UHGV virus genome: UHGV-0037186
Strand: one strand, 5' to 3'
DNA: 10,400 nt
Source of the DNA: a virus
Shown here: positions 1 to 10,400 of the stretch, one piece after another
Layout of the letters: each line of letters opens with the position of its first letter
Position numbering within the stretch: the first letter of the stretch is position 1
The notes under the pieces: model-generated
Database searches by the model: none
Seen by the model: the letters and a program-made list of their open reading frames with translations, nothing else
Told to the model about the DNA's origin: nothing
Translations under genes and position numbers: made by a program

Positions 1-26
1 GCGGAGACGATAAATAAGTAATAAAG

Positions 27-52
27 AAAAACCCGCCATTTGGCGGGTTTTA
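27..52. terminator. Intrinsic (rho-independent) terminator hairpin, symmetric so potentially bidirectional
   Basis: A-tract (27-31), stem CCCGCC (32-37) pairing with GGCGGG (42-47), 4-nt loop ATTT, then T-tract (48-51). Overlaps the stop codon (50-52, minus strand TAA) of the minus-strand ORF 50..610. Confidence 0.7.
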
Positions 53-610
53 TGCGCAAATTTTTTCGCAGTCTTGCGAGTGACTGAGTGAGCGAGTAAC
101 TCTCTCCACCTCATGAATGTCGCCCAACGATCTTATACGCAGGGCAAGATTCCACGTACTCAATGTGCGCGCGTTACGCACCAGTTCTTCCCGTGCTTTT
201 TCGTCTTTGCTGTCAAGACGACCGCAGTCGTTCAACCATTTAGCGACTTCCGCCCAGTCCCAGAGTGGAGACTGACCGCTGATACGCTGAACAGGGCAAG
301 GAAAATCACCTTTGCCACGTAATCCGTCTTTAAGCAGAGTAATAGCCTGGCGCGTTAAGCCAGAGAGTTGAGCAATATCGCTCAAGCCTACCAGTGCTGA
401 ATCTACCGATTCCACCACTGCGCCAATGCCTGCTGTTTCAATATCAAGGATTGCCGATTCGATTGCTTCATCTAAAGATTTAGCTTCTCGGTCAAATTCT
501 ACATACACTGAGTTTCCGTAGTAGCAAATGAGCGCATCATCGCAACCGTGGCTATACAGAGCATCTGCGACTACGCAGTACTGACTACAGGTTATCAGAA
601 TTATCCCCAT
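50..610 (-). CDS. Hypothetical protein, 186 aa; Cys-rich N-terminus (CxxxC ... CxxxxC) and HTH-like C-terminal segment (DIAQLSGLTRQAITLL ... WDWAEVAKWL); possible DNA-binding regulator
   Basis: Long uninterrupted minus-strand ORF ending exactly at the terminator hairpin 27-52. Protein-like composition. No recognisable Shine-Dalgarno upstream of the ATG at 608-610, so the start is uncertain. Function inferred only from motif-level resemblance. Confidence 0.5.
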   Translation of the reverse strand: MGIILITCSQYCVVADALYSHGCDDALICYYGNSVYVEFDREAKSLDEAIESAILDIETAGIGAVVESVDSALVGLSDIAQLSGLTRQAITLLKDGLRGKGDFPCPVQRISGQSPLWDWAEVAKWLNDCGRLDSKDEKAREELVRNARTLSTWNLALRIRSLGDIHEVERVTRSLSHSQDCEKICA

Positions 611-687
611 TTACATCAGCTTATCTACGTCAGCCCTCAAGTTCTTCAGCAAGCCAGCTCCACCGCCTGATTCCAACATGATAAAAT

Positions 688-711
688 TGATATACGAAAA
701 TAAGTATATAG
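688..711. promoter_or_regulatory. Inverted repeat in the divergent intergenic region (candidate operator)
   Basis: TGATATAC (688-695), 8-nt spacer, GTATATAG (704-711); arms are reverse complements at 7 of 8 positions (core ATATAC/GTATAT perfect). Lies between the minus-strand ORF start (610) and the plus-strand ATG at 720. Confidence 0.3.
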
Positions 712-719
712 ATAACATT

Positions 720-1151
720 ATGAGCGCCGATATCTACGAAAAAATCATGTCCGATCTGGAGTTCGACCGCGACAATCTGGAGGAAGTCTGGCGTCAGCAA
801 CCGCGTCTGTTGATGGAGTATGGCTCTAAGCTGGCACGGGCAGAACGTGAGGTTGCAGATGCAAAACTATCTCTCGACGCGATCGAGGCAAAAATCTATG
901 ACAACGAGCGTAAGAGCTTGAGTATGAATGGAATTAAGTTTAATGAATCCGTACTGGAAGCGAAGGTTAGAACCAACCCGCAATACCTCGCAAAGCGCCA
1001 GAAACTCGACGATGCTCGACACATTGCAGACCTGTACAAGCACGCTGTAGCCGCCTTCTCCCACCGCCGCGATATGATTGTCCAGGCGTCGAAGATGGCT
1101 ATCGTAGAGATAGAGCGTCTGGGGGCCGAACGATTCCATTTACCCCGTTAA
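720..1151 (+). CDS. Hypothetical small, predicted helix-rich protein (~143 aa); possible UvsY-like recombination mediator
   Basis: ORF in the track runs 678..1151. I prefer the in-frame ATG at 720 because the inverted repeat 688-711 would otherwise sit inside the coding sequence; neither start has a clear SD. The UvsY-like call is a from-memory pattern resemblance to T4 UvsY and the genomic context (next to gp32-like SSB and RecA-like genes), not a verified alignment. Confidence 0.5.
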   Translation: MSADIYEKIMSDLEFDRDNLEEVWRQQPRLLMEYGSKLARAEREVADAKLSLDAIEAKIYDNERKSLSMNGIKFNESVLEAKVRTNPQYLAKRQKLDDARHIADLYKHAVAAFSHRRDMIVQASKMAIVEIERLGAERFHLPR

Positions 1152-1270
1152 TTTATGCTAGATAGTAAGTAAGTACTGATCTATCATTCTTCTCGCTCGA
1201 AAGAGCCACGAACAAACGAACGCCCAATGCGCATAGCGCCAATGGCCACAATCACAACAAGGAGAAATAC

Positions 1271-2287
1271 ATGTCTAAGTCATTACTTGATCTGCTTAAC
1301 AAGACCCGTGGCGATATTGCTTCCAAACGTGGCAATAACATTGATTTGACCCGTCTGAAAGATGGCAATAACTATCTGCGCATTTTTCCGAACAAGGACG
1401 ATCCGAATGGCGTGTTCTTCCAGACTTTCGGTATGCACTACGTTAAGCATCAGAATGAGGAAGGCAAAGATGTAACCACCGCCTATATCTGCGAACAACA
1501 CACCCACGGCCACGCTTGCCAGCTGTGTGAGATGGTTATGGAAGGTCGCGCTCGCTTTAAGGGCAACAAAGCGATGGAAGAGCGCATTAATAGTATGCGT
1601 GCTACGCCGCGTTATCTGGTCAACGGTGTTCTGTCTGCGCGTGAAGACTTTGCGGACGCAGAGAAATGCCAGCTGATTGAGCTGCCGTCTACGGTCTTCG
1701 ACGATATCTGCAAAGTGATGTCCGAAGATATTGCGGACGATATTGGCAACCCACTGAGCAAAGAAGAAGGCTATGCGTTCCTGATTAAACGCACCGGTTC
1801 CGGTCGTGACACCAAGTACGACGTATCCCCGAAACGTAAAGTCTACAAAGGCGACATTCCTGAGAAGCTCTGGACTACCCAACACGATCTGATCGCATAT
1901 GCGAACCAGGCTGACGAAACTCGTTTGCTGTCCACGACTCGCACTATGGGTCGTCTGATTGGTATTGCGGCTCCGGCAGCAACTATGTCCTCACCAGCCA
2001 TTTCTTCCGCTGCAAAATCAGCCGCAGCTGGACTGCCAGGCTTTGGCTCTATCACTGGTCATACGGAAGGCGCAGCTGCTGTCGCTACAGCACATACTCC
2101 GGCGCCAGAGTCCACCAGCCTGGTTGATGAAGAGATCCTGCGTGCCGCTGAAGCTGAGTTCAAACCGGAAGAAGCGAAAGCTCCGGAAGCCACCGAAGCC
2201 GCAAGTGCTTCAGCATCTGCTGCCGCTGCATCTGTACCAGCTGATGAAGGTCTCGATGACCTGCTGGCTGAACTGGACGCTCTGTAA
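1271..2287 (+). CDS. Single-stranded DNA-binding protein, phage T4 gp32-like (Zn-binding core, low-complexity linker, acidic C-terminal tip)
   Basis: Strong SD AAGGAG (1259-1264) 6 nt before ATG 1271. N-terminal region resembles gp32 (LRIFPNKDDPNGVFF; Cys/His cluster CEQHTHGHACQLCE consistent with a Zn site). C-terminal ~120 aa is Ala/Ser/Pro/Thr-rich and ends in the acidic tip DEGLDDLLAELDAL typical of SSB interaction tails. Followed by a terminator. Confidence 0.75.
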   Translation: MSKSLLDLLNKTRGDIASKRGNNIDLTRLKDGNNYLRIFPNKDDPNGVFFQTFGMHYVKHQNEEGKDVTTAYICEQHTHGHACQLCEMVMEGRARFKGNKAMEERINSMRATPRYLVNGVLSAREDFADAEKCQLIELPSTVFDDICKVMSEDIADDIGNPLSKEEGYAFLIKRTGSGRDTKYDVSPKRKVYKGDIPEKLWTTQHDLIAYANQADETRLLSTTRTMGRLIGIAAPAATMSSPAISSAAKSAAAGLPGFGSITGHTEGAAAVATAHTPAPESTSLVDEEILRAAEAEFKPEEAKAPEATEAASASASAAAASVPADEGLDDLLAELDAL

Positions 2288-2304
2288 TCCCATAACGTAA
2301 CCAG

Positions 2305-2333
2305 TAAGGCGTCTGCGGACGCCTTACTTTTTG
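2305..2333 (+). terminator. Intrinsic terminator after the SSB gene
   Basis: Stem TAAGGCGTC (2305-2313) / GACGCCTTA (2318-2326), loop TGCG, followed by CTTTTTGG. The T-tract runs directly into the SD (GGAAGGAG 2333-2340) of the next gene, suggesting partial termination or attenuation. Confidence 0.75.
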
Positions 2334-2347
2334 GAAGGAGTGTACCG

Positions 2348-3292
2348 GTGAATTATCTCTTTGTGGACGGTAACAGCCTGGGCTATTACCACCAGCAATC
2401 CGACAAATTACACAACGGCGAGATGGAAGTTCAGGCGGCTTTTGGCTTCGTGAAGAACGTTCGTCGTTACGCCTCAATTCTCCATGCCCGGCCAATGATC
2501 TTGTGGGATGGATTCAGCGACAAACGTCGCGACTTCTACCCGGAGTACAAAGCGAACCGCGACGACGACCCGGACATGAAGAAGATGAAAGAAGGCTTTG
2601 CCATCCAGAAGCCGTACATCTTGAAAATGATGACCGCGCTGGGCGTTAACCAACTCATTGCAAAGGACGCAGAAGCGGATGACCTGGCTGGAATGCTGGT
2701 CTCTCGTCTGGCTCCGCAGCCGACCGTCGATCACATCTACCTGCTGACTGGCGATGGCGACTGGCTCCAGCTTGTTCGTGAGAACGTGAGCTGGATAAGC
2801 CTGCGTGAAGACGCCAAGCACAAGCAGGTGAACTTCGAACAGTTCGCAGAGCTGACCGGTCTGCCGACCCCACGCGCGTTTCTGGAAGCGAAAGCGTTGC
2901 AGGGCGATAACTCGGACAACATCAAAGGCGTAGGTGGCATTGGTGATGGTGGCGCGAAAGAGCTGCTTCATGAATGGGGAAGCGTGGCCGCAATGGTACG
3001 CGGCATTAACGACGGTTCCATTGTCATCAACAAAGGTCGCTATAAGACGGCATTCAACAAGCTGGCAAAGAACGCCTTCAACGAGAAGACGGGCTGCCGG
3101 ATGCTCGAAGCCTTTAAGCGCAACATGATGCTGATGAACCTTATCGACACAAAATTCCCACCCAGCGAAATCGAGTCGATTAAAGGCGCACGCGATATGA
3201 GCGCCTTTGAACAGATGTGTTACGAGCTGAATTTCCGTTCGTTTCTGGAAGATCTGGAAGTGTTTGTTCTGCCGTTTGAGAGGTATTGCTGA
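2348..3292 (+). CDS. 5'-3' exonuclease / flap endonuclease (FEN; Pol I 5'-nuclease / T5 D15 / T4 RNase H family)
   Basis: GTG start at 2348 preceded by strong SD GGAAGGAG. Hallmark motifs present: N-terminal LFVDGNSL, acidic clusters (AEADD, LLTGDGDW) and the helix-3-turn-helix DNA-binding motif GDNSDNIKGVGGIGDGGAKELL. Confidence 0.85.
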   Translation: MNYLFVDGNSLGYYHQQSDKLHNGEMEVQAAFGFVKNVRRYASILHARPMILWDGFSDKRRDFYPEYKANRDDDPDMKKMKEGFAIQKPYILKMMTALGVNQLIAKDAEADDLAGMLVSRLAPQPTVDHIYLLTGDGDWLQLVRENVSWISLREDAKHKQVNFEQFAELTGLPTPRAFLEAKALQGDNSDNIKGVGGIGDGGAKELLHEWGSVAAMVRGINDGSIVINKGRYKTAFNKLAKNAFNEKTGCRMLEAFKRNMMLMNLIDTKFPPSEIESIKGARDMSAFEQMCYELNFRSFLEDLEVFVLPFERYC

Positions 3293-3558
3293 TGCTGAAA
3301 TCCATCATTAATGGCGGGGCAACTACGCCAACCATGCTGGCAAAGGAGATTGTTTTCTGCCACGGCGAGCACGCTGTGGTAGCGCTGCCGAACATTCTGG
3401 GCGCTGCTGGCATTTCTGCTACTGAGCGTGAGTTCGCGCTGGTCAGTGAGCAGGTCGTGAAGATCATCGCTCGCGTCGCCAAACACCTGAACCACGACGC
3501 AATCAAGTTTGACGAAGCCGCTGCTTCGAAGCGAATCAACGAATCAAAAGGAGCCTAA
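3292..3558 (+). CDS. Hypothetical protein (~88 aa), unknown function
   Basis: ATG at 3292 overlaps the TGA stop of the upstream FEN gene (TGATG), with GAGAGG upstream, suggesting translational coupling. The track's TTG start at 3286 is unlikely. Ends 2 nt before the recA-like gene, whose SD lies in its 3' end. Confidence 0.55.
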   Translation: MLKSIINGGATTPTMLAKEIVFCHGEHAVVALPNILGAAGISATEREFALVSEQVVKIIARVAKHLNHDAIKFDEAAASKRINESKGA

Positions 3559-3560
3559 TC

Positions 3561-5900
3561 ATGGCAAAAGGCAAATCCGCACTGGCACTGGCGCTGAAAA
3601 AGAAAATCGGCAGCAATGACGAGATTCAGAAGGTCTCCCACTGGATTGACTCCGGTTTCCCTCCACTGAACAAAGCCATTTCCGGACGTTACGACGGTGG
3701 TTTTCCGTGTGGGCGTATCGTTGAAGTCTTCGGGCCACCAAGCGCGGGGAAATGTGTTACCGCAGACACCATGCTGCTGACGGAGCGTGGAATGGTAACA
3801 GTGAAAGAACTGTTTGAGATTGAGGGGCACAAAGCAACATGCACTACTCGCGATGTAGAGCATAACGTTGGACTCATCAATGAAAATGGCGTGATAGAGA
3901 AAACCTCACACCTGACATGGAACAACCGTCGCAAATTCAAGCGCATTAAGCTGGCATCAGGGGGTTACATCGAGGCTACGTTCCGTCACCCAATTCGTGT
4001 GGTTGACGACTTAGGCAATATCGTCTGGCGGTATGCTGAAAAAATCAGTGTAGGCGACACGATTCCTTCAATGGTTGGCACACATCAATTCGGCGATCAG
4101 CACTTGGATGCCAATATCGCAAAACTGATGGGCTATTTAATTGCTGACGGATACGTGGCCTCTGAAAATTCTGTGCATTTTTCTAACACAGATCCATTCA
4201 TCAAGGATGAGTACTACCGCCTCATTTCGCTGGTATCAGACAAGATGCCAGTTACGAGAAAACATAACGGCTCGGAAGACCATGTGCTGTTTAGCAAAGA
4301 GGTGCGTTCGCTGCTTTTTAAAGAATATGGTCTGGAGTATGAGAAAGCTGCTGGCAAGCAGGTTCCGTTGAGTGTGCGTCGCGCCAATAGCGAGGCTCAA
4401 ATTGCATTCCTTCGCGGCTACTTTGAGCTGGAATGCCACGTCAATGATGGTCGCTGCATTGAGGTTGTGAGCGCGAGTGGGCTGCTGCTACAGCAAATTC
4501 GCCTCATGCTCCTGAATCTGGGGATTACGTCAACTATCTCTGAAAAACACGTCGCAGGTTATAAAAACATATATTACCGGCTGTCATTCAGTGGCTCTAA
4601 CTACGACCTTTTCCTGTCAACGATTGGGTTCGAGTCTCCGGCTCGTTTAGCAGTGGCAACCAAACGGGACATTAGTTTTGACCGCACTTATTTAGGCTAC
4701 GTTCCGCACATCAGCGGCTTAGTGAAATCACTCTACGAGTCACTCACCAAGACCTCTCGTAAAGACTACGTTCTGGTAGATCACGTTATTGGCCGCGGCG
4801 ATCGTGTCGGAATAGACAAACTGCGAGAAATCTATGTCTCCTTCATTGGCAGAAAGAATCGTTTTAACGAGCATCTGTTTGCACAACTGGCAGCGGTAAT
4901 TGACTCTAACTTGTTCTACGACGAAGTCGTGGCTATTGAGGAAGGTGAAGCACCAACGTTCGACGTAGCGATGCCGGAAACACACTCTTTCTGGTCTAAC
5001 GGGATTATCAGCCACAACACATTCCTCGCGACGGCTGCGATGGTGTCAGCACAAAAACAGGATGGTCTGGCCGTATTCCTTGACCACGAAAACAGTTTCG
5101 ACGTTGGTCTGGCGGTAGCGAACGGACTGAACGCCGACGAAGACGACGGTCAGTGGGTCTACAAACAGCCGGATACCTTCGAAGACTCCGTAGAGCTGAT
5201 CGGCACAATCCTCAAGCTGGTGCGCGACGAAGAGCTTATTCCGGAAACAGCCCCTATCTGCATCGTAGCCGACTCTCTGGCGTCGATGGTTCCGAACTCG
5301 AAGGCTGAGAAGTTCGACAAGATGGCAGAAGGCACTGCGAAGGACAAAGATCAGCTGAACATGAACGACAACACGGCGCTGGCGCGCGCGACAAGTGCGA
5401 ACTTCCCTACTCTGGCGCTTTGGGCGCGTAAGTACAACGCGTGCATCATCTTCTTGAACCAGGTGCGTACCAAAATTGGTGTGATGTTTGGCGATCCGAC
5501 TACGTCTCCGGGTGGCGACTCTCCGAAGTTCTACGCGTCGGTGCGCATCCGTCTGGGTGCATCCGTCATGAAGGATGGCAAAGAGAAGATCGGACAGGAC
5601 GTTGGCGCCGAGTGCATTAAAAACAAAGTCGCACCTCCGTTTGGCAAATGCTCATGGAAATTCTACTTCGACCCGACTCGCGGGCTGGACGTCGTCGAGT
5701 CTCTGGTTGAATACATGCTGGAGGAAGGATACCTGCCCAAGAGCGCCAGCGGGCGTGTGGAAATTGGCGAGAAGAAATACACCAAATCACAGATCGTCGA
5801 GATGTACCGGGAGAAGCCATTAGCTGAAATCATTGCTGCGTTACAGGCAATAGATGACAGGCGCGAGAAGACATCACCGACAGATGAATTAGAAGATTAA
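3561..5900 (+). CDS. recA: RecA-family recombinase precursor (779 aa) containing an in-frame intein; predicted mature RecA ~357 aa
   Basis: SD AAAGGAG (3547-3553) 7 nt before ATG. N-extein ends GRIVEVFGPPSAGK (compare E. coli RecA GRIVEIYGPESSGKT). C-extein resumes with T and carries RecA-typical segments (FLNQVRTKIGVMFGDPTTSPGGDSPKFYASVRIRLG, compare E. coli [35 protein letters not shown]). Closer to bacterial RecA than to T4 UvsX, by recall. Followed by a terminator. Confidence 0.9.
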   Translation: MAKGKSALALALKKKIGSNDEIQKVSHWIDSGFPPLNKAISGRYDGGFPCGRIVEVFGPPSAGKCVTADTMLLTERGMVTVKELFEIEGHKATCTTRDVEHNVGLINENGVIEKTSHLTWNNRRKFKRIKLASGGYIEATFRHPIRVVDDLGNIVWRYAEKISVGDTIPSMVGTHQFGDQHLDANIAKLMGYLIADGYVASENSVHFSNTDPFIKDEYYRLISLVSDKMPVTRKHNGSEDHVLFSKEVRSLLFKEYGLEYEKAAGKQVPLSVRRANSEAQIAFLRGYFELECHVNDGRCIEVVSASGLLLQQIRLMLLNLGITSTISEKHVAGYKNIYYRLSFSGSNYDLFLSTIGFESPARLAVATKRDISFDRTYLGYVPHISGLVKSLYESLTKTSRKDYVLVDHVIGRGDRVGIDKLREIYVSFIGRKNRFNEHLFAQLAAVIDSNLFYDEVVAIEEGEAPTFDVAMPETHSFWSNGIISHNTFLATAAMVSAQKQDGLAVFLDHENSFDVGLAVANGLNADEDDGQWVYKQPDTFEDSVELIGTILKLVRDEELIPETAPICIVADSLASMVPNSKAEKFDKMAEGTAKDKDQLNMNDNTALARATSANFPTLALWARKYNACIIFLNQVRTKIGVMFGDPTTSPGGDSPKFYASVRIRLGASVMKDGKEKIGQDVGAECIKNKVAPPFGKCSWKFYFDPTRGLDVVESLVEYMLEEGYLPKSASGRVEIGEKKYTKSQIVEMYREKPLAEIIAALQAIDDRREKTSPTDELED
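3753..5018 (+). mobile_element. Intein (422 aa) with LAGLIDADG homing-endonuclease domain, inserted in the Walker A P-loop of the RecA-family gene
   Basis: Starts with Cys (codon 65, TGT 3753-3755) immediately after GPPSAGK. Ends ...GIISHN (His-Asn, codons 485-486) followed by Thr+1 (the Walker A Thr). Block B-like T-x-x-H (ATFRHPI). LAGLIDADG motifs LMGYLIADGYV (~4124-4156) and FLRGYFELECHV (~4407-4442). Length is a multiple of 3 (1266 nt) and in-frame. Confidence 0.85.
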
Positions 5901-5905
5901 TTTTC

Positions 5906-5930
5906 AGGCGTCCGAATGGACGCCTTTATA
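5906..5930 (+). terminator. Intrinsic terminator after the recA-like gene
   Basis: Stem AGGCGTCC (5906-5913) / GGACGCCT (5918-5925), loop GAAT, followed by TTTATA. Stem sequence is closely related to the SSB terminator stem. Confidence 0.7.
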
Positions 5931-5990
5931 CCTTGAAAATATATAAGCACTTACTTACCATCTACACACAATAGCCACATAGGAAAACAC

Positions 5991-6191
5991 ATGATCAAAC
6001 TCTATCTGATGGCAGTGGCTACAGGTATATCTGTAGTTTTCATCTACTGTTTGCTGGTTCCGTCGCTGATCTCGGCTAAAAGCAATATTGCCGTAATGCT
6101 TGGAATCATTGTTGCTTTTGGCGCTCCTGTTATCGGCTTTAATGTTGGTCGTAACTTTCTGAAGTCACTAATTAATTCGAAGGGGAAGTAA
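5991..6191 (+). CDS. Small hydrophobic membrane protein (66 aa, two predicted TM helices)
   Basis: AGGA (5981-5984) 6 nt before ATG. Two long hydrophobic stretches (LYLMAVATGISVVFIYCLLVPSLI and IAVMLGIIVAFGAPVIGF) with a basic C-terminus. Its stop overlaps the SD region of the next gene. Confidence 0.5.
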   Translation: MIKLYLMAVATGISVVFIYCLLVPSLISAKSNIAVMLGIIVAFGAPVIGFNVGRNFLKSLINSKGK

Positions 6192-6194
6192 GTA

Positions 6195-6386
6195 ATGAAG
6201 AAAGGTTTACTGGCAGTGATCGTGGCTGCTGTTTGCACAATGGGTCTTACAGGCTGCGATCGTGTTGAGCCTGGGTACGTTGGCATCAAAGTAAACAAAT
6301 TGGGTGAAGACAAAGGTATCGGTGAAGTTGTCGGCGTTGGCCGTCAGTGGACTGGTCTGAATACCGAGCTGTACACCTCTCTTTAA
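6195..6386 (+). CDS. Small lipoprotein (63 aa); possibly a truncated N-terminal fragment of an SPFH/band-7-type lipoprotein
   Basis: SD AAGGGGA 7 nt before ATG. Signal peptide MKKGLLAVIVAAVCTMG plus lipobox L-T-G-C. The mature part (VEPGYVGIKVNKLGEDKGIGEVV...) resembles the start of an SPFH domain, but the ORF stops after ~40 residues of it. Confidence 0.55.
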   Translation: MKKGLLAVIVAAVCTMGLTGCDRVEPGYVGIKVNKLGEDKGIGEVVGVGRQWTGLNTELYTSL

Positions 6387-6409
6387 GTCATCTTAAATGA
6401 CTCTGAGGT

Positions 6410-6457
6410 GTCTGTTAAACCTGTGGCGATTCAGTCTATTAAACCTGTGGCGATTCA
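6410..6457. repeat. Tandem direct repeat, 2 x 24 bp (GTCTGTTAAACCTGTGGCGATTCA / GTCTATTAAACCTGTGGCGATTCA), one mismatch
   Basis: Read directly from the sequence at 6410-6433 and 6434-6457. Lies in the 232-bp AT-rich non-coding spacer between the lipoprotein ORF and hsdM. Confidence 0.8.
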
Positions 6458-6618
6458 CTTTATGGTGTCATAAACTTAAATCTAGCGCCGGGTAGAACAA
6501 GTTAATCGAACGATGTAGCGGCCATTTAGGCGTTACAGAAAGAACAGAATTTTAAATTTATAGTGAAGCCGTTGCAGCAACTTTGTGGGGTGCAACCAAC
6601 ACTGAACAGGAAAAGAAA

Positions 6619-9042
6619 ATGGATCATAGTGTACATAACAAGCTCATCTCATTTATTTGGAACATTGCCGACGACTGTTTACGTGATGTGTACGTTCGCG
6701 GTAAGTACCGCGATGTGATTTTACCTATGGTGGTATTACGACGTTTAGATACGTTACTTGAACCCACCAAAGAAGCCGTGCTTGAAGAGGTCAAGTTCCA
6801 AAAAGAAGAGATGCAAGCCACGGAGCTTGATGATGAACCATTGAAGGCGGCTAGTGGTTATGTTTTTTACAATACATCTAAATGGACCCTGAAATCCCTG
6901 TTCAACACCGCAACGAATAACCAACAGATATTACTCGCCAACTTTGAAGAGTACCTGCTTGGCTTTAGCGATAATGTTAAAGAAATCATTGAATGCTTTA
7001 ACCTCAAGTTGCAAATTCGTCACATGGCCTCAAAGCAAGTCCTTCTTGATGTCGTCGAAAAGTTTGTTTCCCCTTACATCAACTTAACTCATGAAACGGT
7101 CGAAGACCCAGATGGCAACAAGATGCCAGCCCTTACTAACCTGGGTATGGGGTACGTGTTCGAAGAGTTGATCCGTAAGTTCAACGAAGAAAACAACGAA
7201 GAAGCCGGTGAGCACTTTACACCTAGGGAAGTGATTGAGCTGATGACACACTTGGTTTTTGACCCAGTGAAAGAGCAGCTACCATTGACCATGACCGTTT
7301 ACGACCCTGCGTGTGGTAGCGGTGGTATGCTCACTGAATCTCAAAACTTCATTGAAGAGAAATACCCGAACGACAGCCGAGATATTTACCTTTACGGCAA
7401 AGAGATCAATGACGAGACCTACGCGATTTGTAAATCGGACATGATGATCAAAGGCAACAACCCTGAGAACATCAAAGTAGGCTCAACCTTGTCTACCGAC
7501 GAGTTTGCGGCTTCACGCTTTGACTTTATGTTGTCTAACCCGCCATACGGTAAGAGTTGGGCGTCTGAACAGAAGTACATTAAAGACGGCAGTGATGTGA
7601 TTGACCCGCGTTTTAAGGTTAGCCTGAAAGACTATTGGGGAAATCTCGAAGTGGTGGATGCCACGCCACGTTCGAGTGATGGCCAGCTGCTTTTCTTAAT
7701 GGAGATGGTCAACAAGATGAAAGATCCGAGCGTAAGTCCATTAGGCAGCCGGATTGCCTCTGTTCATAACGGCTCATCGCTCTTTACCGGTGATGCGGGC
7801 GGTGGCGAAAGTAATATTCGTCGCTTCATCATTGAAAACGACATGCTAGATGCCATCGTTCAGTTACCTAATAACCTGTTCTATAACACTGGCATTACCA
7901 CTTACATTTGGGTGTTGAGCAACAATAAACCTGAGGCGCGTAAAGGTAAGGTGCAATTAATTGATGCCAGCTTGCTCTACCGTAAGTTGCGCAAGAACTT
8001 AGGTAACAAAAACTGCGAATTTGCGCCTGAGCACATCACGGAAATTACCGATACTTACCTCGCGTGTAAGGATGTTGAAAGAGCACTGGATGCAAACAAT
8101 GATCCTGTTGGCATCGCCAGTAAGGTATTCAGCAATGACGATTTTGGCTACTACAAAGTCACTATCGAGCGCCCAGATCGCCGCAAAGCCAAGTTTACTC
8201 AAGATGCCATAGCCCCACTGCGTTTTGATAAGCAACTTAGTGAAGTGATGGAGTACGTGTACGCAGAGCACGGCGAACGTGTTTACGAAAAAACTGGCTA
8301 CGGGTCAGATCAGAAAAAGAGCTTCTTAAAATCCATCGAGAAAGACATTCTTTCTTGGTGTGAAGATAACGACATCAGTCTCAATGCTAAGGCTAAGGCC
8401 AAACTGCTTGATGTGAAACACTGGCTGGCGCTAAAAGCATTGCTTGAAACTGCACAAACGCTGATGGCTGACATCGGTAGCATTGAATTTGATGACTTCA
8501 ATAGCTTTAAAACCCAAGTTGATAAATCGCTAAAAGCCCATGCTATTAAGCTTTCAGCACCTGAGAAAAATGCCATTCTTCACGCGGTGAGCTGGTATGA
8601 CGAAACCGCCAAGAAAGTGGTTAAAAAGGTAGTTAAATTAACGGGTGATAAATTAAACGACCTGCTGGAGCGCTATGAGTGTGAAGTCGCTGACTTGCCA
8701 GATTTTGGTTATTACCCCGTTCCTTCAGCAGAAGGCGGTAAAAAAGGCGAGTATATCACTTACGAGACCAATTCAGACCTGCGAGATACAGAATCTGTTC
8801 CATTAAAGCAAAGCATTTACCAGTACTTCCTAGATGAAGTGAAGCCTCATGTCGATGAAGCATGGATAAACCTAGATACGGTAAAAATTGGCTATGAAAT
8901 CAGCTTCAATAAGTATTTCTACCGTCATAAACCGCTGCGTAGTTTAGAAGAGGTCGCAACCGACATCATCAACCTAGAACAAAAAGCCGAAGGTTTGATT
9001 GCGCAGATTCTTGGTGCGGAAGTAAAAAAGGTTCAGGGGTAA
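6619..9042 (+). CDS. hsdM: Type I restriction-modification system, DNA methyltransferase subunit M (N6-adenine), unusually long (~807 aa)
   Basis: SD AGGA (6608-6611) 7 nt before ATG 6619; the track's 6583 start is an upstream TTG extension. HsdM N-terminal domain signature (LISFIWNIADDCLRDVYVRGKYRDVILPMVVLRRLD), FTPREV, AdoMet motif I DPACGSGGML (~7303-7332) and catalytic motif IV NPPYG (~7537-7551). About 330 aa extend beyond the catalytic core. Confidence 0.9.
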   Translation: MDHSVHNKLISFIWNIADDCLRDVYVRGKYRDVILPMVVLRRLDTLLEPTKEAVLEEVKFQKEEMQATELDDEPLKAASGYVFYNTSKWTLKSLFNTATNNQQILLANFEEYLLGFSDNVKEIIECFNLKLQIRHMASKQVLLDVVEKFVSPYINLTHETVEDPDGNKMPALTNLGMGYVFEELIRKFNEENNEEAGEHFTPREVIELMTHLVFDPVKEQLPLTMTVYDPACGSGGMLTESQNFIEEKYPNDSRDIYLYGKEINDETYAICKSDMMIKGNNPENIKVGSTLSTDEFAASRFDFMLSNPPYGKSWASEQKYIKDGSDVIDPRFKVSLKDYWGNLEVVDATPRSSDGQLLFLMEMVNKMKDPSVSPLGSRIASVHNGSSLFTGDAGGGESNIRRFIIENDMLDAIVQLPNNLFYNTGITTYIWVLSNNKPEARKGKVQLIDASLLYRKLRKNLGNKNCEFAPEHITEITDTYLACKDVERALDANNDPVGIASKVFSNDDFGYYKVTIERPDRRKAKFTQDAIAPLRFDKQLSEVMEYVYAEHGERVYEKTGYGSDQKKSFLKSIEKDILSWCEDNDISLNAKAKAKLLDVKHWLALKALLETAQTLMADIGSIEFDDFNSFKTQVDKSLKAHAIKLSAPEKNAILHAVSWYDETAKKVVKKVVKLTGDKLNDLLERYECEVADLPDFGYYPVPSAEGGKKGEYITYETNSDLRDTESVPLKQSIYQYFLDEVKPHVDEAWINLDTVKIGYEISFNKYFYRHKPLRSLEEVATDIINLEQKAEGLIAQILGAEVKKVQG

Positions 9043-9048
9043 GTCGTT

Positions 9049-10350
9049 ATGATGAAGATTTCTGAAATGCCGAAATATGAGGTTTATAAGGATTCAGGTG
9101 TTGAATGGCTAGGGGATATTCCTGCGTCTTGGAGCTTATTAGCTAATAAGCACATCTTTCGCTTGAAGAAAAAACAGGTTGGAAAACGCTCAAGCGAATA
9201 TGATTTGCTATCGCTTACTCTCAGAGGTGTGATTAAGCGTGATATGGAAAACCCAGAGGGTAAGTTCCCAGCAGAGTTCGATACTTATCAAGAAGTGCAG
9301 TGTGGAGATTTCATTTTCTGCTTGTTCGACGTGGAAGAAACACCCAGAACTGTTGGGTTGTCGCCATTTAATGGGATGATTACTGGTGCATATACCGTTT
9401 TTGAACTAAATGACAATTTTGATAATAGGTTTTTATACTATTTTTATATGAACCTTGATGCAAAAAAGATGCTTAAACCGCTTTATCGTGGCCTGAGAAA
9501 TACAATTCCTAAAGATTCATTTCTGAGTTTTAAGACGTTTGTTCCTCCCCATGAGCAACAAACCCGTATCGCCAACTTCCTAGACAAGAAAACCGCTCTA
9601 ATCGACGAAGCGATTTCGATCAAAGAGCAGCAAATTAGCCTGCTGAAAGAGCGTAAGCAGATCATCATCCAACAGGCGGTGACCCAAGGGCTTGATCCCA
9701 ATGTGCCAATGAAAGACTCCGGTGTGGATTGGATTGGTAAGATTCCAGCGCATTGGGATATTGTGCCAGGATTTACAGTATTTAAAGAGGGAAAAGACTC
9801 GAACAAAGGGATGATTGAATCACAAGTTTTATCTCTCAGTTATGGAAATGTTATTATAAAACCAGAGGAGAAATTGGTTGGGCTTGTACCTGAGTCTTTT
9901 GAAACGTATCAAATAGCTTTACCTGGCGACATCATAATACGTTGTACAGACTTGCAAAATGACAAAACGAGCTTGAGAACGGGTATAGTGCGGAATAAAG
10001 GAATTATAACTAGTGCTTACCTTAACTTACGGTTGAAAACGGAACATTCAGCTGAATTTATGCATTATTTTCTTCATGTATTAGATATAACTAAAACTAT
10101 ATATCGTTTTGGTTCTGGGCTGAGACAAAACTTGAGTTATAAAGATTTTAAGCATATGAGAATATTGATGCCTCCTAAAGCAGAGCAAATTGAAATAGTA
10201 AATTACATCAATAATCAAGTAGAAGTGACTGAGTCATCTATTGATCTGATTAAAAATAAAATAGAAAAATTAAAAGAATACAAAACCACCCTGATCAACA
10301 GCGCCGTGACAGGAAAAATAAAAATCACCCCAGAAATGGTTGAGCAATAG
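9049..10350 (+). CDS. hsdS: Type I restriction-modification system, specificity subunit S (two target-recognition domains)
   Basis: Starts 6 nt after the hsdM stop (translational coupling). Internal duplicated architecture typical of HsdS: TRD1 begins SGVEWLGDIPASWSL, TRD2 begins SGVDWIGKIPAHWDI; conserved central region (PPHEQQTRIANFLDKKTALIDEAI) and C-terminal region (PPKAEQIEIVNYINNQVEVTESSI). The 3' half is very AT-rich. Confidence 0.85.
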   Translation: MMKISEMPKYEVYKDSGVEWLGDIPASWSLLANKHIFRLKKKQVGKRSSEYDLLSLTLRGVIKRDMENPEGKFPAEFDTYQEVQCGDFIFCLFDVEETPRTVGLSPFNGMITGAYTVFELNDNFDNRFLYYFYMNLDAKKMLKPLYRGLRNTIPKDSFLSFKTFVPPHEQQTRIANFLDKKTALIDEAISIKEQQISLLKERKQIIIQQAVTQGLDPNVPMKDSGVDWIGKIPAHWDIVPGFTVFKEGKDSNKGMIESQVLSLSYGNVIIKPEEKLVGLVPESFETYQIALPGDIIIRCTDLQNDKTSLRTGIVRNKGIITSAYLNLRLKTEHSAEFMHYFLHVLDITKTIYRFGSGLRQNLSYKDFKHMRILMPPKAEQIEIVNYINNQVEVTESSIDLIKNKIEKLKEYKTTLINSAVTGKIKITPEMVEQ

Positions 10351-10359
10351 GACGCGAAT

Positions 10360-10400
10360 ATGTTCACGGTAAATCATCAAACCAACAGGATTAGTCCTGT
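10360..10400 (+). CDS. 5' end of an unidentified downstream ORF (MFTVNHQTNRISP...), truncated by the window edge
   Basis: ATG at 10360, 9 nt after the hsdS stop, with a weak AGGA upstream. Only 13 codons visible; could be hsdR or an accessory gene, and cannot be identified from this fragment. Confidence 0.2.
   Translation, partial: MFTVNHQTNRISP

What the first reader, a model, noticed from the sequence alone, without database searches (positions are those of the whole stretch)
5930..10400. Abrupt compositional shift marks an acquired Type I hsdM-hsdS cassette next to the recombination module
Hand counts on sampled 60-nt lines give roughly 55% GC in the recA region (line 5461-5520) against roughly 27% in the hsdS second TRD (line 9421-9480). 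hsdM also reads as AT-richer, with a different codon style (frequent AAA, GAT, TTA). The change occurs across the two small genes and the 232-bp spacer at 5990-6618. This argues that the R-M genes have a different evolutionary origin from the recombination module, as in a defence island or an insertion into a mobile element.
Basis: seen in the sequence. Interest (0 to 1): 0.5.

Follow-up and report, generated by a model that had tools for sequence, protein, structure and literature searches.

The report
Acquired restriction-modification cassette in phage-plasmid
The AT-rich right half of the window is a Type I restriction-modification (anti-phage defence) gene cassette, probably of marine-bacterial origin, that insertion-sequence activity placed in a variable region of an E. 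coli SSU5-like phage-plasmid; this is real but an ordinary case of horizontal gene transfer.

Summary
GC is 50.3% for 1-6376 and 42.0% for 6377-10400 (hsdM 44.3%, hsdS 37.9%). Codon usage and tetranucleotide signature also differ.

The window matches E. coli plasmid pB379_2, an SSU5-like phage-plasmid, at all but one base. The true junction is at 6374-6378. There the backbone SPFH gene is cut after 61 codons and fused, through a 5-bp microhomology, to a 60-bp remnant of an IS3-family left end. A second copy of that IS end follows.

From 6456 the DNA is 92-96% identical to WYL-hsdM-hsdS-DUF4268-hsdR cassettes of Vibrio gigantis, V. thalassae and a Kangiellaceae MAG. In those genomes its ~44% GC matches the flanking DNA.

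The system is complete: DUF4268 and hsdR lie just beyond the window. Only 28 of 709 related plasmids carry this junction, and relatives keep an intact SPFH gene. The same cassette sits at 98.5-99.8% identity in IS-littered E. coli chromosomal islands.

It has also moved between diverged phage-plasmid backbones as a block. Sibling plasmids hold a Type III R-M system, or nothing, in the same recA-repA interval.

The phenomenon is well known and interest is low.

The parts
3561..5900 (+). Backbone recA, the last gene of the gp32 / 5'-3' exonuclease / recA recombination module. It carries an intein with a LAGLIDADG endonuclease at about 3753-5027. It serves as the compositional reference for the backbone.
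   Evidence: Pfam RecA, LAGLIDADG_3 and Intein_splicing. SSU5 recA is 1077 bp and aligns on both sides of a 1.27-kb gap. GC is 0.506 overall; intein 0.477 and extein 0.539.
5907..5929 (+). Hairpin GGCGTCC-GAAT-GGACGCC followed by TTTAT, directly after the recA stop codon. Terminator-like. The best GC change point (5883) lies just upstream.
   Evidence: Read directly from the sequence. The consensus scan did not flag it because the T run is too short. Change point.
5991..6191 (+). orf66, a small backbone gene homologous to SSU5_061 and annotated 'membrane protein' in some records. It is AT-rich (41.3% GC) but native to the backbone.
   Evidence: It aligns with SSU5.
6195..6386 (+). Truncated 5' stub of the backbone SPFH/band-7 gene (SSU5_062, 831 bp when intact). 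61 native codons run into the IS remnant, which supplies the stop codon.
   Evidence: Alignment with SSU5. Intact-SPFH relatives match only up to window 6374-6378. Translation.
6374..6378 (.). Left junction. The 5 bp CACCT are shared by the SPFH gene and the IS leader, which is the signature of a microhomology-mediated deletion or illegitimate join rather than an IS terminus.
   Evidence: Alignments A1 and A5.
6374..6433 (-). 60-bp remnant of the left end of an IS3-family insertion sequence: terminal inverted repeat plus leader. The terminus is at 6433 and the whole transposase gene is missing.
   Evidence: Matches at about 95-100% in 1195 of 5426 E. coli genomes. In the two copies fetched it lies immediately next to the start codon of an 'IS3 family transposase'.
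6434..6457 (-). Second, tandem 24-nt copy of the same IS terminal repeat (23 of 24 identical to 6410-6433).
   Evidence: the repeat finder. Also present in the chromosomal island copies.
6456..6618 (+). First DNA of the imported cassette: the last ~50 bp of a WYL-domain regulator gene, whose remainder is lost, plus the native 113-bp region upstream of hsdM.
   Evidence: About 92% mean column identity with V. gigantis p1, V. thalassae and the Kangiellaceae MAG, starting exactly here.
6619..9042 (+). hsdM, the Type I N6-adenine DNA methyltransferase subunit, 807 aa. It has motif I DPACGSGG, motif IV NPPY, and a ~320-aa C-terminal extension of unknown fold.
   Evidence: Pfam HsdM_N and N6_Mtase. 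PADLOC MTase_I PDLC03029 matches end to end, E = 5e-268. Translation. PDB M subunits match only within aa 118-488. GC 0.443.
9049..10350 (+). hsdS, the specificity subunit, 433 aa. TRD1 is about 9133-9543, the central conserved region 9544-9756, TRD2 9757-10239 and the conserved C-terminus 10240-10350.
   Evidence: Pfam Methylase_S, two stretches. PADLOC Specificity_I. Alignment of five copies shows invariant N-terminal, central and C-terminal regions with variable TRDs. GC 0.379.
10360..10400 (+). Start of the DUF4268 gene, which runs off the window and is followed by hsdR in the source plasmid.
   Evidence: L001 ORF 19360-20457 and hsdR 20537-23554. PADLOC PDC-S11 and REase_I.

Best explanation
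The window comes from an SSU5-like phage-plasmid of E. coli. Positions 1-6378 are native backbone: an AlpA-like regulator, gp32-type SSB, 5'-3' exonuclease, a small ORF annotated elsewhere as a UvsY-like mediator, intein-containing RecA, orf66 and the first 61 codons of an SPFH gene.

From 6456 onward lies an 8.2-kb Type I restriction-modification cassette, hsdM-hsdS-DUF4268-hsdR, that evolved in a ~44% GC genomic background. Its closest relatives are in marine Gammaproteobacteria (Vibrio, Kangiellaceae, Shewanella). There it is preceded by a WYL regulator gene, and in V. gigantis it sits next to Tn7-like transposition genes.

In an enterobacterial intermediate an IS3-family element inserted into the 3' end of the WYL gene, and IS911-like elements came to flank the other side. 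This IS-bounded segment then entered the recA-repA interval of a phage-plasmid and replaced about 1.5 kb of it (the rest of SPFH, DUF2591/NinX and most of the next ORF). A microhomology-mediated deletion formed the left junction and an IS terminus forms the right one.

The block later spread among diverged SSU5-like backbones by homologous recombination in the flanking conserved genes.

Function (inferred from the established biochemistry of Type I systems). M2S methylates adenines in a bipartite target set by the two HsdS TRDs. R2M2S translocates and cuts unmethylated incoming DNA. This would protect the lysogen, and so the phage-plasmid, from other phages and plasmids, and would mark the element's own DNA.

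What is shown: the composition shift, the junction anatomy, the distribution, and the sequence relationships. What is inferred: the order of events, the direction of transfer, and the activity of the system.
For: **Identity of the source.** The window differs at one base from pB379_2.

**Backbone.** Homology to phage SSU5 runs at about 88-95% up to window 6378 and resumes at L001 27898, which corresponds to SSU5 L002 15032. So 12.5 kb is inserted and 1,471 bp of the SSU5-equivalent sequence is missing.

**Left junction.**
- IS3-family end remnant and 5-bp microhomology.
- Tandem IR copy.

**The same cassette elsewhere in E. coli.**
- 99.8% identity over 8,265 nt in the chromosomal island of E. 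coli JSWP006, and 98.5-99.6% in SCEC020022. Both are flanked by IS fragments.
- Only 31 of 5426 complete E. coli genomes hold it.

**Marine relatives.**
- V. gigantis p1 91.8% (hsdM) and 95.1% (DUF4268-hsdR).
- V. thalassae 93.0% and 96.3%.
- Kangiellaceae MAG 93.6% and 96.0%.
- All begin at window 6456 and end at L001 23647.
- The cassette's GC, 0.434-0.44, equals the GC of its flanks in those genomes (0.44-0.46). It is 7-14 points below its E. coli flanks.

**Distribution.**
- 28 of 709 related plasmids carry the junction.
- No INPHARED phage record has a full-length relative of this HsdM or the cassette DNA.

**Block transfer.** pCPF6-IncFIB and pSLy3 are 76-83% identical to window 1-3500, but about 95-100% identical from ~5000 through the cassette, apart from one dip to 88% in pCPF6 at 5501-6000 and the swapped hsdS TRDs.

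**Intactness.** Catalytic motifs are present, HsdS has the two-TRD architecture, and hsdR is intact at 1005 aa.
Against: - No activity data exist, and the methylation motif is unknown.
- In pB379_2 the DUF4268 gene is 22 codons shorter than in other copies. The phage-plasmid's dnaE is interrupted by IS3. This particular element may therefore be decaying.
- The marine relatives are 92-96% identical, not ~100%, so the actual donor has not been sampled. 'Marine origin' rests on the taxonomic distribution of the nearest relatives and on matching GC.
- R-M genes, and hsdS TRDs especially, tend to be AT-rich wherever they are found. Composition alone would therefore be weak evidence.
- The GC step (5883) does not coincide with the junction (6374-6378).
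- No target-site duplication or pair of intact IS copies was found, so the insertion mechanism is reconstructed, not demonstrated.
Confidence: 0.88

Rival explanations
1. The lower GC is an intrinsic property of R-M genes (AT-rich, lysine/asparagine-rich DNA-binding proteins and fast-evolving TRDs). It says nothing about origin, and the cassette is an old resident of the phage-plasmid lineage that most relatives have lost.
For: hsdS TRDs are the most AT-rich part of the window. The backbone itself varies between 0.41 and 0.57 GC, and orf66 is 41%. The R-M proteins have more K/N and less A/G/R than the backbone proteins.
Against: Only 28 of 709 relatives carry the junction. The site shows a truncated SPFH gene, IS remnants and a 1.47-kb replacement, while relatives have the intact genes. 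The cassette is ≥98.5% identical in chromosomal islands and in backbones that are only 76-83% identical to each other. Synonymous codon choice, not only amino-acid content, differs.
Confidence: 0.04
2. The cassette is acquired, but its immediate source was an E. coli/Shigella chromosomal island (or the reverse, plasmid to chromosome). The marine relatives are merely other recipients of a promiscuous cassette with no identifiable home.
For: Chromosomal island copies share the same IS-end remnant, the same tandem IR and the same start of cassette DNA at 6456, at 98.5-99.8% identity. Relatives of HsdM at 70-89% aa occur in many phyla and habitats. In V. gigantis the cassette is itself on a plasmid next to Tn7-like genes.
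Against: Neither E. coli version can be the direct parent of the other. The chromosomal copy keeps 51 nt more of the marine-homologous right end. The plasmid copy keeps about 14-17 nt more of the IS remnant. The cassette's GC and tetranucleotide signature fit its Vibrio flanks (0.44-0.46 GC; r = 0.66-0.76) better than any E. coli context. This rival is compatible with the main explanation for the last step of transfer and differs only on the ultimate origin.
Confidence: 0.3
3. The junction is an assembly artefact, such as a chimeric join at a repeated IS sequence, and not a real biological arrangement.
For: The junction lies in a repeated IS end that is present in up to 16 places per genome.
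Against: The identical junction (99.6-100% over 6150-6700) is present in 28 independently sequenced complete plasmids from different hosts, countries and backbones.
Confidence: 0.01

Closest known systems
WYL-hsdM-hsdS-DUF4268-hsdR Type I R-M cassettes of marine Gammaproteobacteria (Vibrio gigantis LMG 22741 plasmid p1, Vibrio thalassae CECT8203, a Kangiellaceae MAG)
   Same: Same gene order and gene sizes. Nucleotide identity is 92-96% outside the hsdS TRDs, and HsdM is 96-97% identical in amino acids. GC is ~44%.
   Different: The E. coli copy has lost the upstream WYL-domain gene except for its last ~50 bp, and also the downstream ATP-binding protein gene. It is bounded by IS remnants rather than sitting beside Tn7-like tnsD/tnsE genes. 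Its HsdS TRDs differ.
Canonical Type I R-M systems (EcoKI, EcoR124I)
   Same: HsdM has the HsdM_N and gamma-class N6-adenine methyltransferase domains. HsdS has two TRDs and conserved spacer regions. HsdR is a helicase-nuclease. PDB M subunits (EcoR124II, EcoKI and others) match aa ~118-488 at E = 1e-9 to 1e-26.
   Different: HsdM is 807 aa, against about 500-540 aa, because of a ~320-aa C-terminal extension with no Pfam or PDB sequence match. An extra gene (DUF4268, PADLOC candidate PDC-S11, weakly NucS-like) sits between hsdS and hsdR. Scores are below the NCBIfam hsdM and hsdR trusted cut-offs.
R-M and other defence systems carried by phage-plasmids (the P1 EcoP1I Type III system; RM systems reported in SSU5 clade J phage-plasmids of E. 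coli and Shigella, bioRxiv 10.1101/2025.09.12.675607)
   Same: A temperate phage that replicates as a plasmid carries a complete R-M system as accessory cargo. The preprint reports RM systems in SSU5-group elements of E. coli/Shigella.
   Different: Here the system is Type I and has a traceable foreign origin and IS scars. That P1's system is Type III and part of its long-standing gene set is recalled from general knowledge, not tested here.
Plastic loci or hotspots of mobile elements (ARG hotspots in phage-plasmids, bioRxiv 10.1101/2022.06.24.497495; defence hotspots of P2/P4, PMC13586616)
   Same: One interval between conserved genes (recA and repA) holds alternative cargo in near-identical backbones. 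The states seen are Type I R-M, Type III R-M + DUF4391 + SNF2, IS1 plus small ORFs, or almost nothing.
   Different: Only about ten elements were inspected, so this is not a systematic survey. The junctions differ between cargoes and carry IS scars, so there is no evidence of a dedicated site-specific exchange mechanism.

Membership tests
Type I restriction-modification system | An M subunit with an HsdM N-terminal domain and a gamma-class N6-adenine methyltransferase domain with intact motif I (FxGxG-like) and motif IV (NPPY/F) | tested here: met
   Pfam HsdM_N E = 7e-23 and N6_Mtase E = 4e-60. DPACGSGG and NPPY are read in the translation. PADLOC MTase_I PDLC03029 covers aa 2-798, E = 5e-268.
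Type I restriction-modification system | An S subunit with two variable target-recognition domains separated and flanked by conserved regions | tested here: met
   Pfam Methylase_S, two stretches. PADLOC Specificity_I E = 4e-99. Five-copy alignment: central aa 166-236 and the C-terminus are almost invariant, the N-terminal ~28 aa are conserved, and the TRDs are 39-41% identical or swapped.
Type I restriction-modification system | A separate R subunit (helicase/translocase plus nuclease) encoded in the same locus | tested here: met
   It lies outside the window, at L001 20537-23554: 1005 aa, annotated type I restriction endonuclease subunit R. PADLOC REase_I E = 2e-41 and TIGR00348 E = 2e-62.
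Type I restriction-modification system | Scores above the curated cut-offs of the NCBIfam hsdM (TIGR00497) and hsdR (TIGR00348) models | tested here: not met
   hsdM scores 107.5 bits against a cut-off of 242.75; hsdR scores 211.6 against 284.55. These models describe narrower subfamilies. This is a divergent long-HsdM subfamily that PADLOC models end to end.
Type I restriction-modification system | Methylation of a bipartite adenine target and ATP-dependent cleavage away from the site | not testable with these tools
   Requires methylome sequencing and restriction assays.
SSU5-like phage-plasmid (backbone of the left half) | Collinear homology with phage SSU5 across the replication/recombination module and a plasmid repA | tested here: met
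   About 88-95% identity with SSU5 over dnaE, regulator, gp32, exonuclease, recA, orf66 and the SPFH stub, resuming after the insertion. The record is typed IncFIB and non-mobilizable. Sibling plasmids have repA downstream.
SSU5-like phage-plasmid (backbone of the left half) | Inducible, forms infectious virions | not testable with these tools
   dnaE is interrupted by IS3 in pB379_2, so this copy may be defective.
Horizontally acquired cassette or genomic islet | Composition (GC, codon usage, oligonucleotide signature) deviates from the host replicon | tested here: met
Horizontally acquired cassette or genomic islet | Absent from close relatives that have an intact empty site | tested here: met
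   SSU5, pHXH-2, Y. pestis pMT1-type and other plasmids have the intact SPFH gene. 28 of 709 records carry the junction.
Horizontally acquired cassette or genomic islet | Near-identical copies in unrelated replicons or taxa | tested here: met
   E. coli chromosomal islands at 98.5-99.8%. Vibrio and Kangiellaceae at 92-96%.
Composite transposon (IS-cargo-IS) | Two intact IS copies bounding the cargo, with a target-site duplication at the outer ends | tested here: not met
   The left border is a 60-bp IS end with no transposase gene, joined to the backbone at a 5-bp microhomology. The right border is a 5'-truncated IS911-like element interrupted by a group II intron and, in pB379_2, by an IS110-family element. 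No duplication was seen at the outer ends.

The most novel reading that the evidence does not exclude
The recA-repA interval of SSU5-like phage-plasmids may be a defence-cargo exchange hotspot. Whole defence systems would be swapped there between diverged phage-plasmids by homologous recombination in the flanking conserved genes. The systems seen so far are a Type I R-M of marine origin that has lost its WYL regulator and, in near-identical siblings, a Type III R-M with SNF2 and DUF4391. If so, these elements would act as shuttles bringing environmental defence genes into clinical Enterobacteriaceae. The ~320-aa C-terminal extension of HsdM and the embedded DUF4268 (PDC-S11) gene might add an uncharacterised activity to the Type I system.
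Probability: 0.45. Interest if true: 0.35.

Novelty: already known. Interest (0 to 1): 0.18.

Why it matters
This is a clean, fully traceable example of how a defence system moves. It goes from a ~44% GC, probably marine, gene pool into E. coli by way of IS-mediated capture, and then spreads among phage-plasmids by recombination of flanking backbone DNA.

It adds detail to the known picture of phage-plasmids as carriers of accessory defence genes, but it does not change that picture. In practice it shows that a GC step can sit several hundred bases from the true junction, because the backbone next to the insertion is already AT-rich. Comparative alignment, not composition, defines insertion boundaries.

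Tried and rejected
- **Rfam scan.** The whole window at E ≤ 0.1 gave no RNA family. In particular nothing was found in the 232-bp spacer.
- **Promoter/terminator scan of 5850-6700.** Three promoter-like sites against 1.8 expected from shuffles, and no terminator. This is uninformative.
- **Composite transposon or simple IS insertion as the mechanism.** Rejected: the left border is a transposase-less IS end fused at a microhomology, the right IS is truncated, and there is no target duplication.
- **The chromosomal island as direct donor of the plasmid copy, or the reverse.** Rejected: each copy keeps terminal nucleotides that the other lacks.
- **The short element at 6374-6442.** It hits many lambdoid phages. 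I first suspected a phage-derived sequence or an IS21-family end, because one hit lay under an IS21 annotation. Alignment to intact copies showed it is the left end of an IS3-family element. I did not name the IS.
- **HsdM C-terminal extension.** Pfam at E ≤ 10 gave only DUF6650 at E = 0.013, and no PDB chain matched beyond aa 488. I did not run a structure prediction because it does not bear on the finding.
- **Early Python runs.** Searches found no loci, because several loci are stored together in one file. The comparison was redone.
Full report
**What the window is.** The 10.4-kb window matches plasmid pB379_2 of E. coli B379 (NZ_CP090457.1, 11374-21773, minus strand) at all but one base, position 3902. 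It is collinear with Salmonella phage SSU5 and with hundreds of SSU5-like phage-plasmids.

Genes in the window (Pfam; annotation):

| Coordinates | Strand | Gene |
|---|---|---|
| 50-610 | - | AlpA-like DNA-binding protein |
| 678-1151 | + | unnamed ORF |
| 1271-2287 | + | gp32-type SSB |
| 2348-3292 | + | 5'-3' exonuclease |
| 3286-3558 | + | small ORF, annotated as a UvsY-like mediator in phage Cyrano |
| 3561-5900 | + | RecA interrupted by an intein with a LAGLIDADG endonuclease |
| 5991-6191 | + | orf66 |
| 6195-6386 | + | 63-codon ORF |
| 6619-9042 | + | hsdM, 807 aa |
| 9049-10350 | + | hsdS, 433 aa |
| 10360-10400 | + | first 41 nt of a DUF4268 gene |

In the source plasmid the DUF4268 gene is followed by an intact hsdR of 1005 aa. 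The R-M system is therefore complete, not an orphan M-S pair.

**Checking the observation.**
- Computed properly, GC is 50.3% for 1-6376 and 42.0% for 6377-10400. hsdM is 44.3%, hsdS 37.9%, and the whole cassette including DUF4268 and hsdR is 43.4%.
- The difference between 60-nt lines is highly significant (Mann-Whitney p = 2e-12).
- A single change-point model gives a log-likelihood ratio of 39.9, against at most 10.2 in 200 block shuffles.
- Synonymous codon usage differs strongly between backbone genes and hsdM+hsdS (chi-square 155.7, df 41, p = 3e-15). Two halves of the backbone do not differ from each other (p = 0.59).
- By codon (backbone vs R-M): CTG 58% vs 20%, TTA 8% vs 21%, GAT 40% vs 61%.
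- Tetranucleotide signatures correlate at 0.87 between two backbone segments and at 0.72 between the two halves of the R-M cassette. Between backbone and cassette they correlate at only 0.54-0.64.

Two details were wrong. Line 9421-9480 lies in the first TRD of HsdS, not the second. The best GC change point is at 5883, the end of recA, because the native orf66 and the intergenic DNA are already AT-rich. The compositional step therefore precedes the real junction by about 490 bp.

**Anatomy of the junction.**
- Alignment with SSU5 shows that the 63-codon ORF is the 5' stub of the backbone SPFH/band-7 gene (SSU5_062, 831 bp when intact). Homology stops at 6376-6378.
- Positions 6374-6433 are the left terminal repeat plus leader of an IS3-family insertion sequence. 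It points leftward, with its terminus at 6433 (…GCGATTCA). In the two intact copies fetched this segment directly abuts the transposase start codon. Here the whole transposase gene is missing.
- The five bases CACCT (6374-6378) are shared by the SPFH gene and the IS leader. The join therefore looks like a microhomology-mediated deletion rather than a transposition end.
- A second copy of the 24-nt terminal repeat follows in tandem at 6434-6457.
- From 6456 the sequence is homologous to cassettes in marine bacteria. It starts in the last ~50 bp of a WYL-domain gene and continues through the native 113-bp region upstream of hsdM.

**The right border (outside the window).**
- Cassette DNA ends about 90 bp past hsdR, at L001 23647.
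- Next comes a 5'-truncated IS911-like element. The IS911 identification rests on my recollection of its terminal repeats and OrfA. The element carries a group II intron and, in pB379_2 only, an IS110-family insertion.
- The terminus of this element abuts the backbone at the position equivalent to SSU5 L002 15032.
- Net result: 12.5 kb inserted (about 11.1 kb in plasmids without the IS110-family element), and 1,471 bp of backbone replaced. The lost backbone comprises the rest of SPFH, the DUF2591/NinX-like gene and most of the next ORF.

**Comparative evidence for acquisition.**
1. *Empty sites.* SSU5, pHXH-2, Y. pestis pMT1-type plasmids and many others have an intact SPFH gene and match the window only up to 6374-6378.
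2. *Rarity.* 709 PLSDB plasmids carry the adjacent recA segment, but only 28 carry the stub/IS/hsdM junction. All 28 listed are from Escherichia or Shigella, apart from one 'Enterobacter sp.' record. No INPHARED phage record has the cassette DNA or a full-length relative of this HsdM.
3. *The same cassette elsewhere.* It occurs at 99.8% identity over 8,265 nt in the chromosome of E. coli JSWP006 and at 98.5-99.6% in SCEC020022. There it lies within IS-littered islands next to Ag43, DUF932 and GTPase genes. Only 31 of 5426 complete E. coli genomes have it. The chromosomal copies share the IS remnant, the tandem repeat and the cassette start at 6456. However, they keep 51 nt more at the right end and about 14-17 nt less of the IS remnant. 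Neither version is the parent of the other.
4. *Foreign relatives.* V. gigantis plasmid p1, V. thalassae and a Kangiellaceae MAG carry WYL-hsdM-hsdS-DUF4268-hsdR at 92-96% nucleotide identity outside the TRDs. A Shewanella plasmid holds a fragment at 94%. In a scan of one genome per species the best HsdM relatives are V. thalassae (97% aa) and the Kangiellaceae MAG (96%). An Enterobacter follows at 89%, and then a broad set of mostly aquatic Proteobacteria at ≤84%.
5. *Composition in context.* In the marine genomes the cassette's GC (0.438-0.44) equals that of its flanks (0.44-0.46). In E. coli it is 7 points below the phage-plasmid backbone and 14 below the chromosomal flank.

**Spread and context.**
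- pCPF6-IncFIB and pSLy3 belong to a different replicon cluster. They are only 76-83% identical to the window over 1-3500. From about 5000 (the recA C-extein) through the junction and the cassette they are about 95-100% identical, and about 96-98% in the right backbone flank. The exceptions are one dip to 88% in pCPF6 at 5501-6000 and the swapped hsdS TRDs.
- pSLy3 even has an intein-less recA. The block has therefore moved between diverged backbones by homologous recombination.
- The HsdS TRDs differ between copies. TRD1 is swapped and TRD2 is identical between the window and SCEC020022. This is the usual way Type I systems change specificity.
- In backbones 99.6-99.8% identical to the window, the same recA-repA interval holds other cargo:
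  - a Type III R-M (Res + Mod) with DUF4391 and an SNF2 protein (p1919D62-2);
  - almost nothing (NZ_CP122497.1);
  - IS1A plus small ORFs (pBL12EC-1).
- Enterobacter and Klebsiella relatives hold fewer small ORFs still. The interval is thus a plastic cargo region.

**How it most likely works.**
- *Shown.* The motif I/IV methyltransferase, the two-TRD S subunit and the R subunit are all intact.
- *Inferred from the established mechanism of Type I enzymes.* M2S maintains adenine methylation at a bipartite site on the host chromosome and on the phage-plasmid. R2M2S binds unmodified sites on incoming DNA, translocates with ATP hydrolysis, and cuts at a distance. For the phage-plasmid this defends the shared host against competing phages and plasmids.
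- *Open points.* The WYL regulator found upstream in the marine versions has been lost, so expression control probably differs. The role of the DUF4268 protein is unknown. It matches PADLOC candidate PDC-S11 and is weakly NucS-like, and it is 22 codons shorter in pB379_2. The role of the 320-aa HsdM C-terminal extension is also unknown.

**Comparison with what is known, and verdict.**
- The genes are already annotated as Type I R-M subunits in RefSeq, and PADLOC models this long-HsdM subfamily end to end.
- RM systems in SSU5-group phage-plasmids of E. coli and Shigella have been reported (bioRxiv 10.1101/2025.09.12.675607). Plastic cargo loci in phage-plasmids have also been reported (bioRxiv 10.1101/2022.06.24.497495).
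- The finding is a well-documented but ordinary instance of horizontal acquisition of a defence cassette by a mobile element.
- The only mildly new elements are the traceable marine-type origin, the microhomology/IS-scar junction, and the indication that the recA-repA interval is a defence-swap hotspot. That last point rests on about ten inspected elements and needs a systematic survey.

Noticed in passing
window 3561-5900 (intein about 3753-5027): The phage-plasmid recA is split by an intein of ~425 aa that carries a LAGLIDADG homing endonuclease. SSU5 and pSLy3 have intein-less recA genes (1077 and 1074 bp). Intein GC is 0.477 against 0.539 for the extein, so it is a second, independent acquired element in the window.
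   Followed up: partly
window 6410-6457: Two tandem 24-nt copies (23 of 24 identical) of an IS3-family terminal inverted repeat. This suggests a second insertion of the same IS right at the end of an earlier copy, followed by loss of both IS bodies.
   Followed up: partly
window 6456-6505; L009 8127-9050: Marine versions of the cassette have a WYL-domain (regulator-type) gene directly upstream of hsdM. All the E. coli copies examined keep only its last ~50 bp, so the system has lost its presumed regulator.
   Followed up: partly
window 8086-9039 (HsdM aa ~490-807): HsdM has a ~320-aa C-terminal extension with no significant Pfam hit (DUF6650, E = 0.013). No PDB chain matches beyond aa 488. The extension is conserved across the family, since the PADLOC profile covers the full length.
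   Followed up: partly
window 10360-10400 onward; L001 19360-20457: A DUF4268 gene lies between hsdS and hsdR. It matches PADLOC defence candidate PDC-S11 and has a weak NucS-like match (E = 2e-5). In pB379_2 the ORF is 365 aa, against 387 aa in other copies, so it may be frameshifted near its 3' end.
   Followed up: partly
L001 7407-8661 (just left of the window): An IS3 element interrupts the phage-plasmid's dnaE (3168 bp annotated, against 3519 bp in SSU5). pB379_2 is 152 kb, against about 105-115 kb for typical relatives. This copy may no longer be a viable phage.
   Followed up: no
L008 2152-9001 and L096 1-4180 (p1919D62-2, NZ_CP046008.1): A sibling phage-plasmid whose backbone is 99.8% identical where compared holds a Type III R-M (Res 1025 aa, Mod 614 aa) in the same recA-repA slot, together with a DUF4391 protein and a 1110-aa SNF2 protein, on the opposite strand. 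Homology to the window ends at 6019, inside orf66.
   Followed up: partly
window 9133-9543 against L004 (E. coli SCEC020022 chromosome): HsdS TRD1 is unrelated between the plasmid and this chromosomal copy, while TRD2 and all conserved regions are identical or nearly so. This indicates recent TRD shuffling within the same cassette.
   Followed up: yes
L001 23749-26216; L003 9218-11685: The same group II intron (the ltrA product, WP_001189111.1, is identical in the plasmid and in the SCEC020022 island) sits inside an IS911-like element. That element lies downstream of the cassette in the plasmids and upstream of it in the chromosomal islands. The arrangement looks circularly permuted, which hints at an IS-plus-cassette circular or recombinational intermediate.
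   Followed up: partly
window 5000-5900 against L011 and L012: In two diverged backbones, identity to the window jumps from about 80% to at least 95% within recA. This marks a recombination breakpoint inside the recombinase gene itself.
   Followed up: partly
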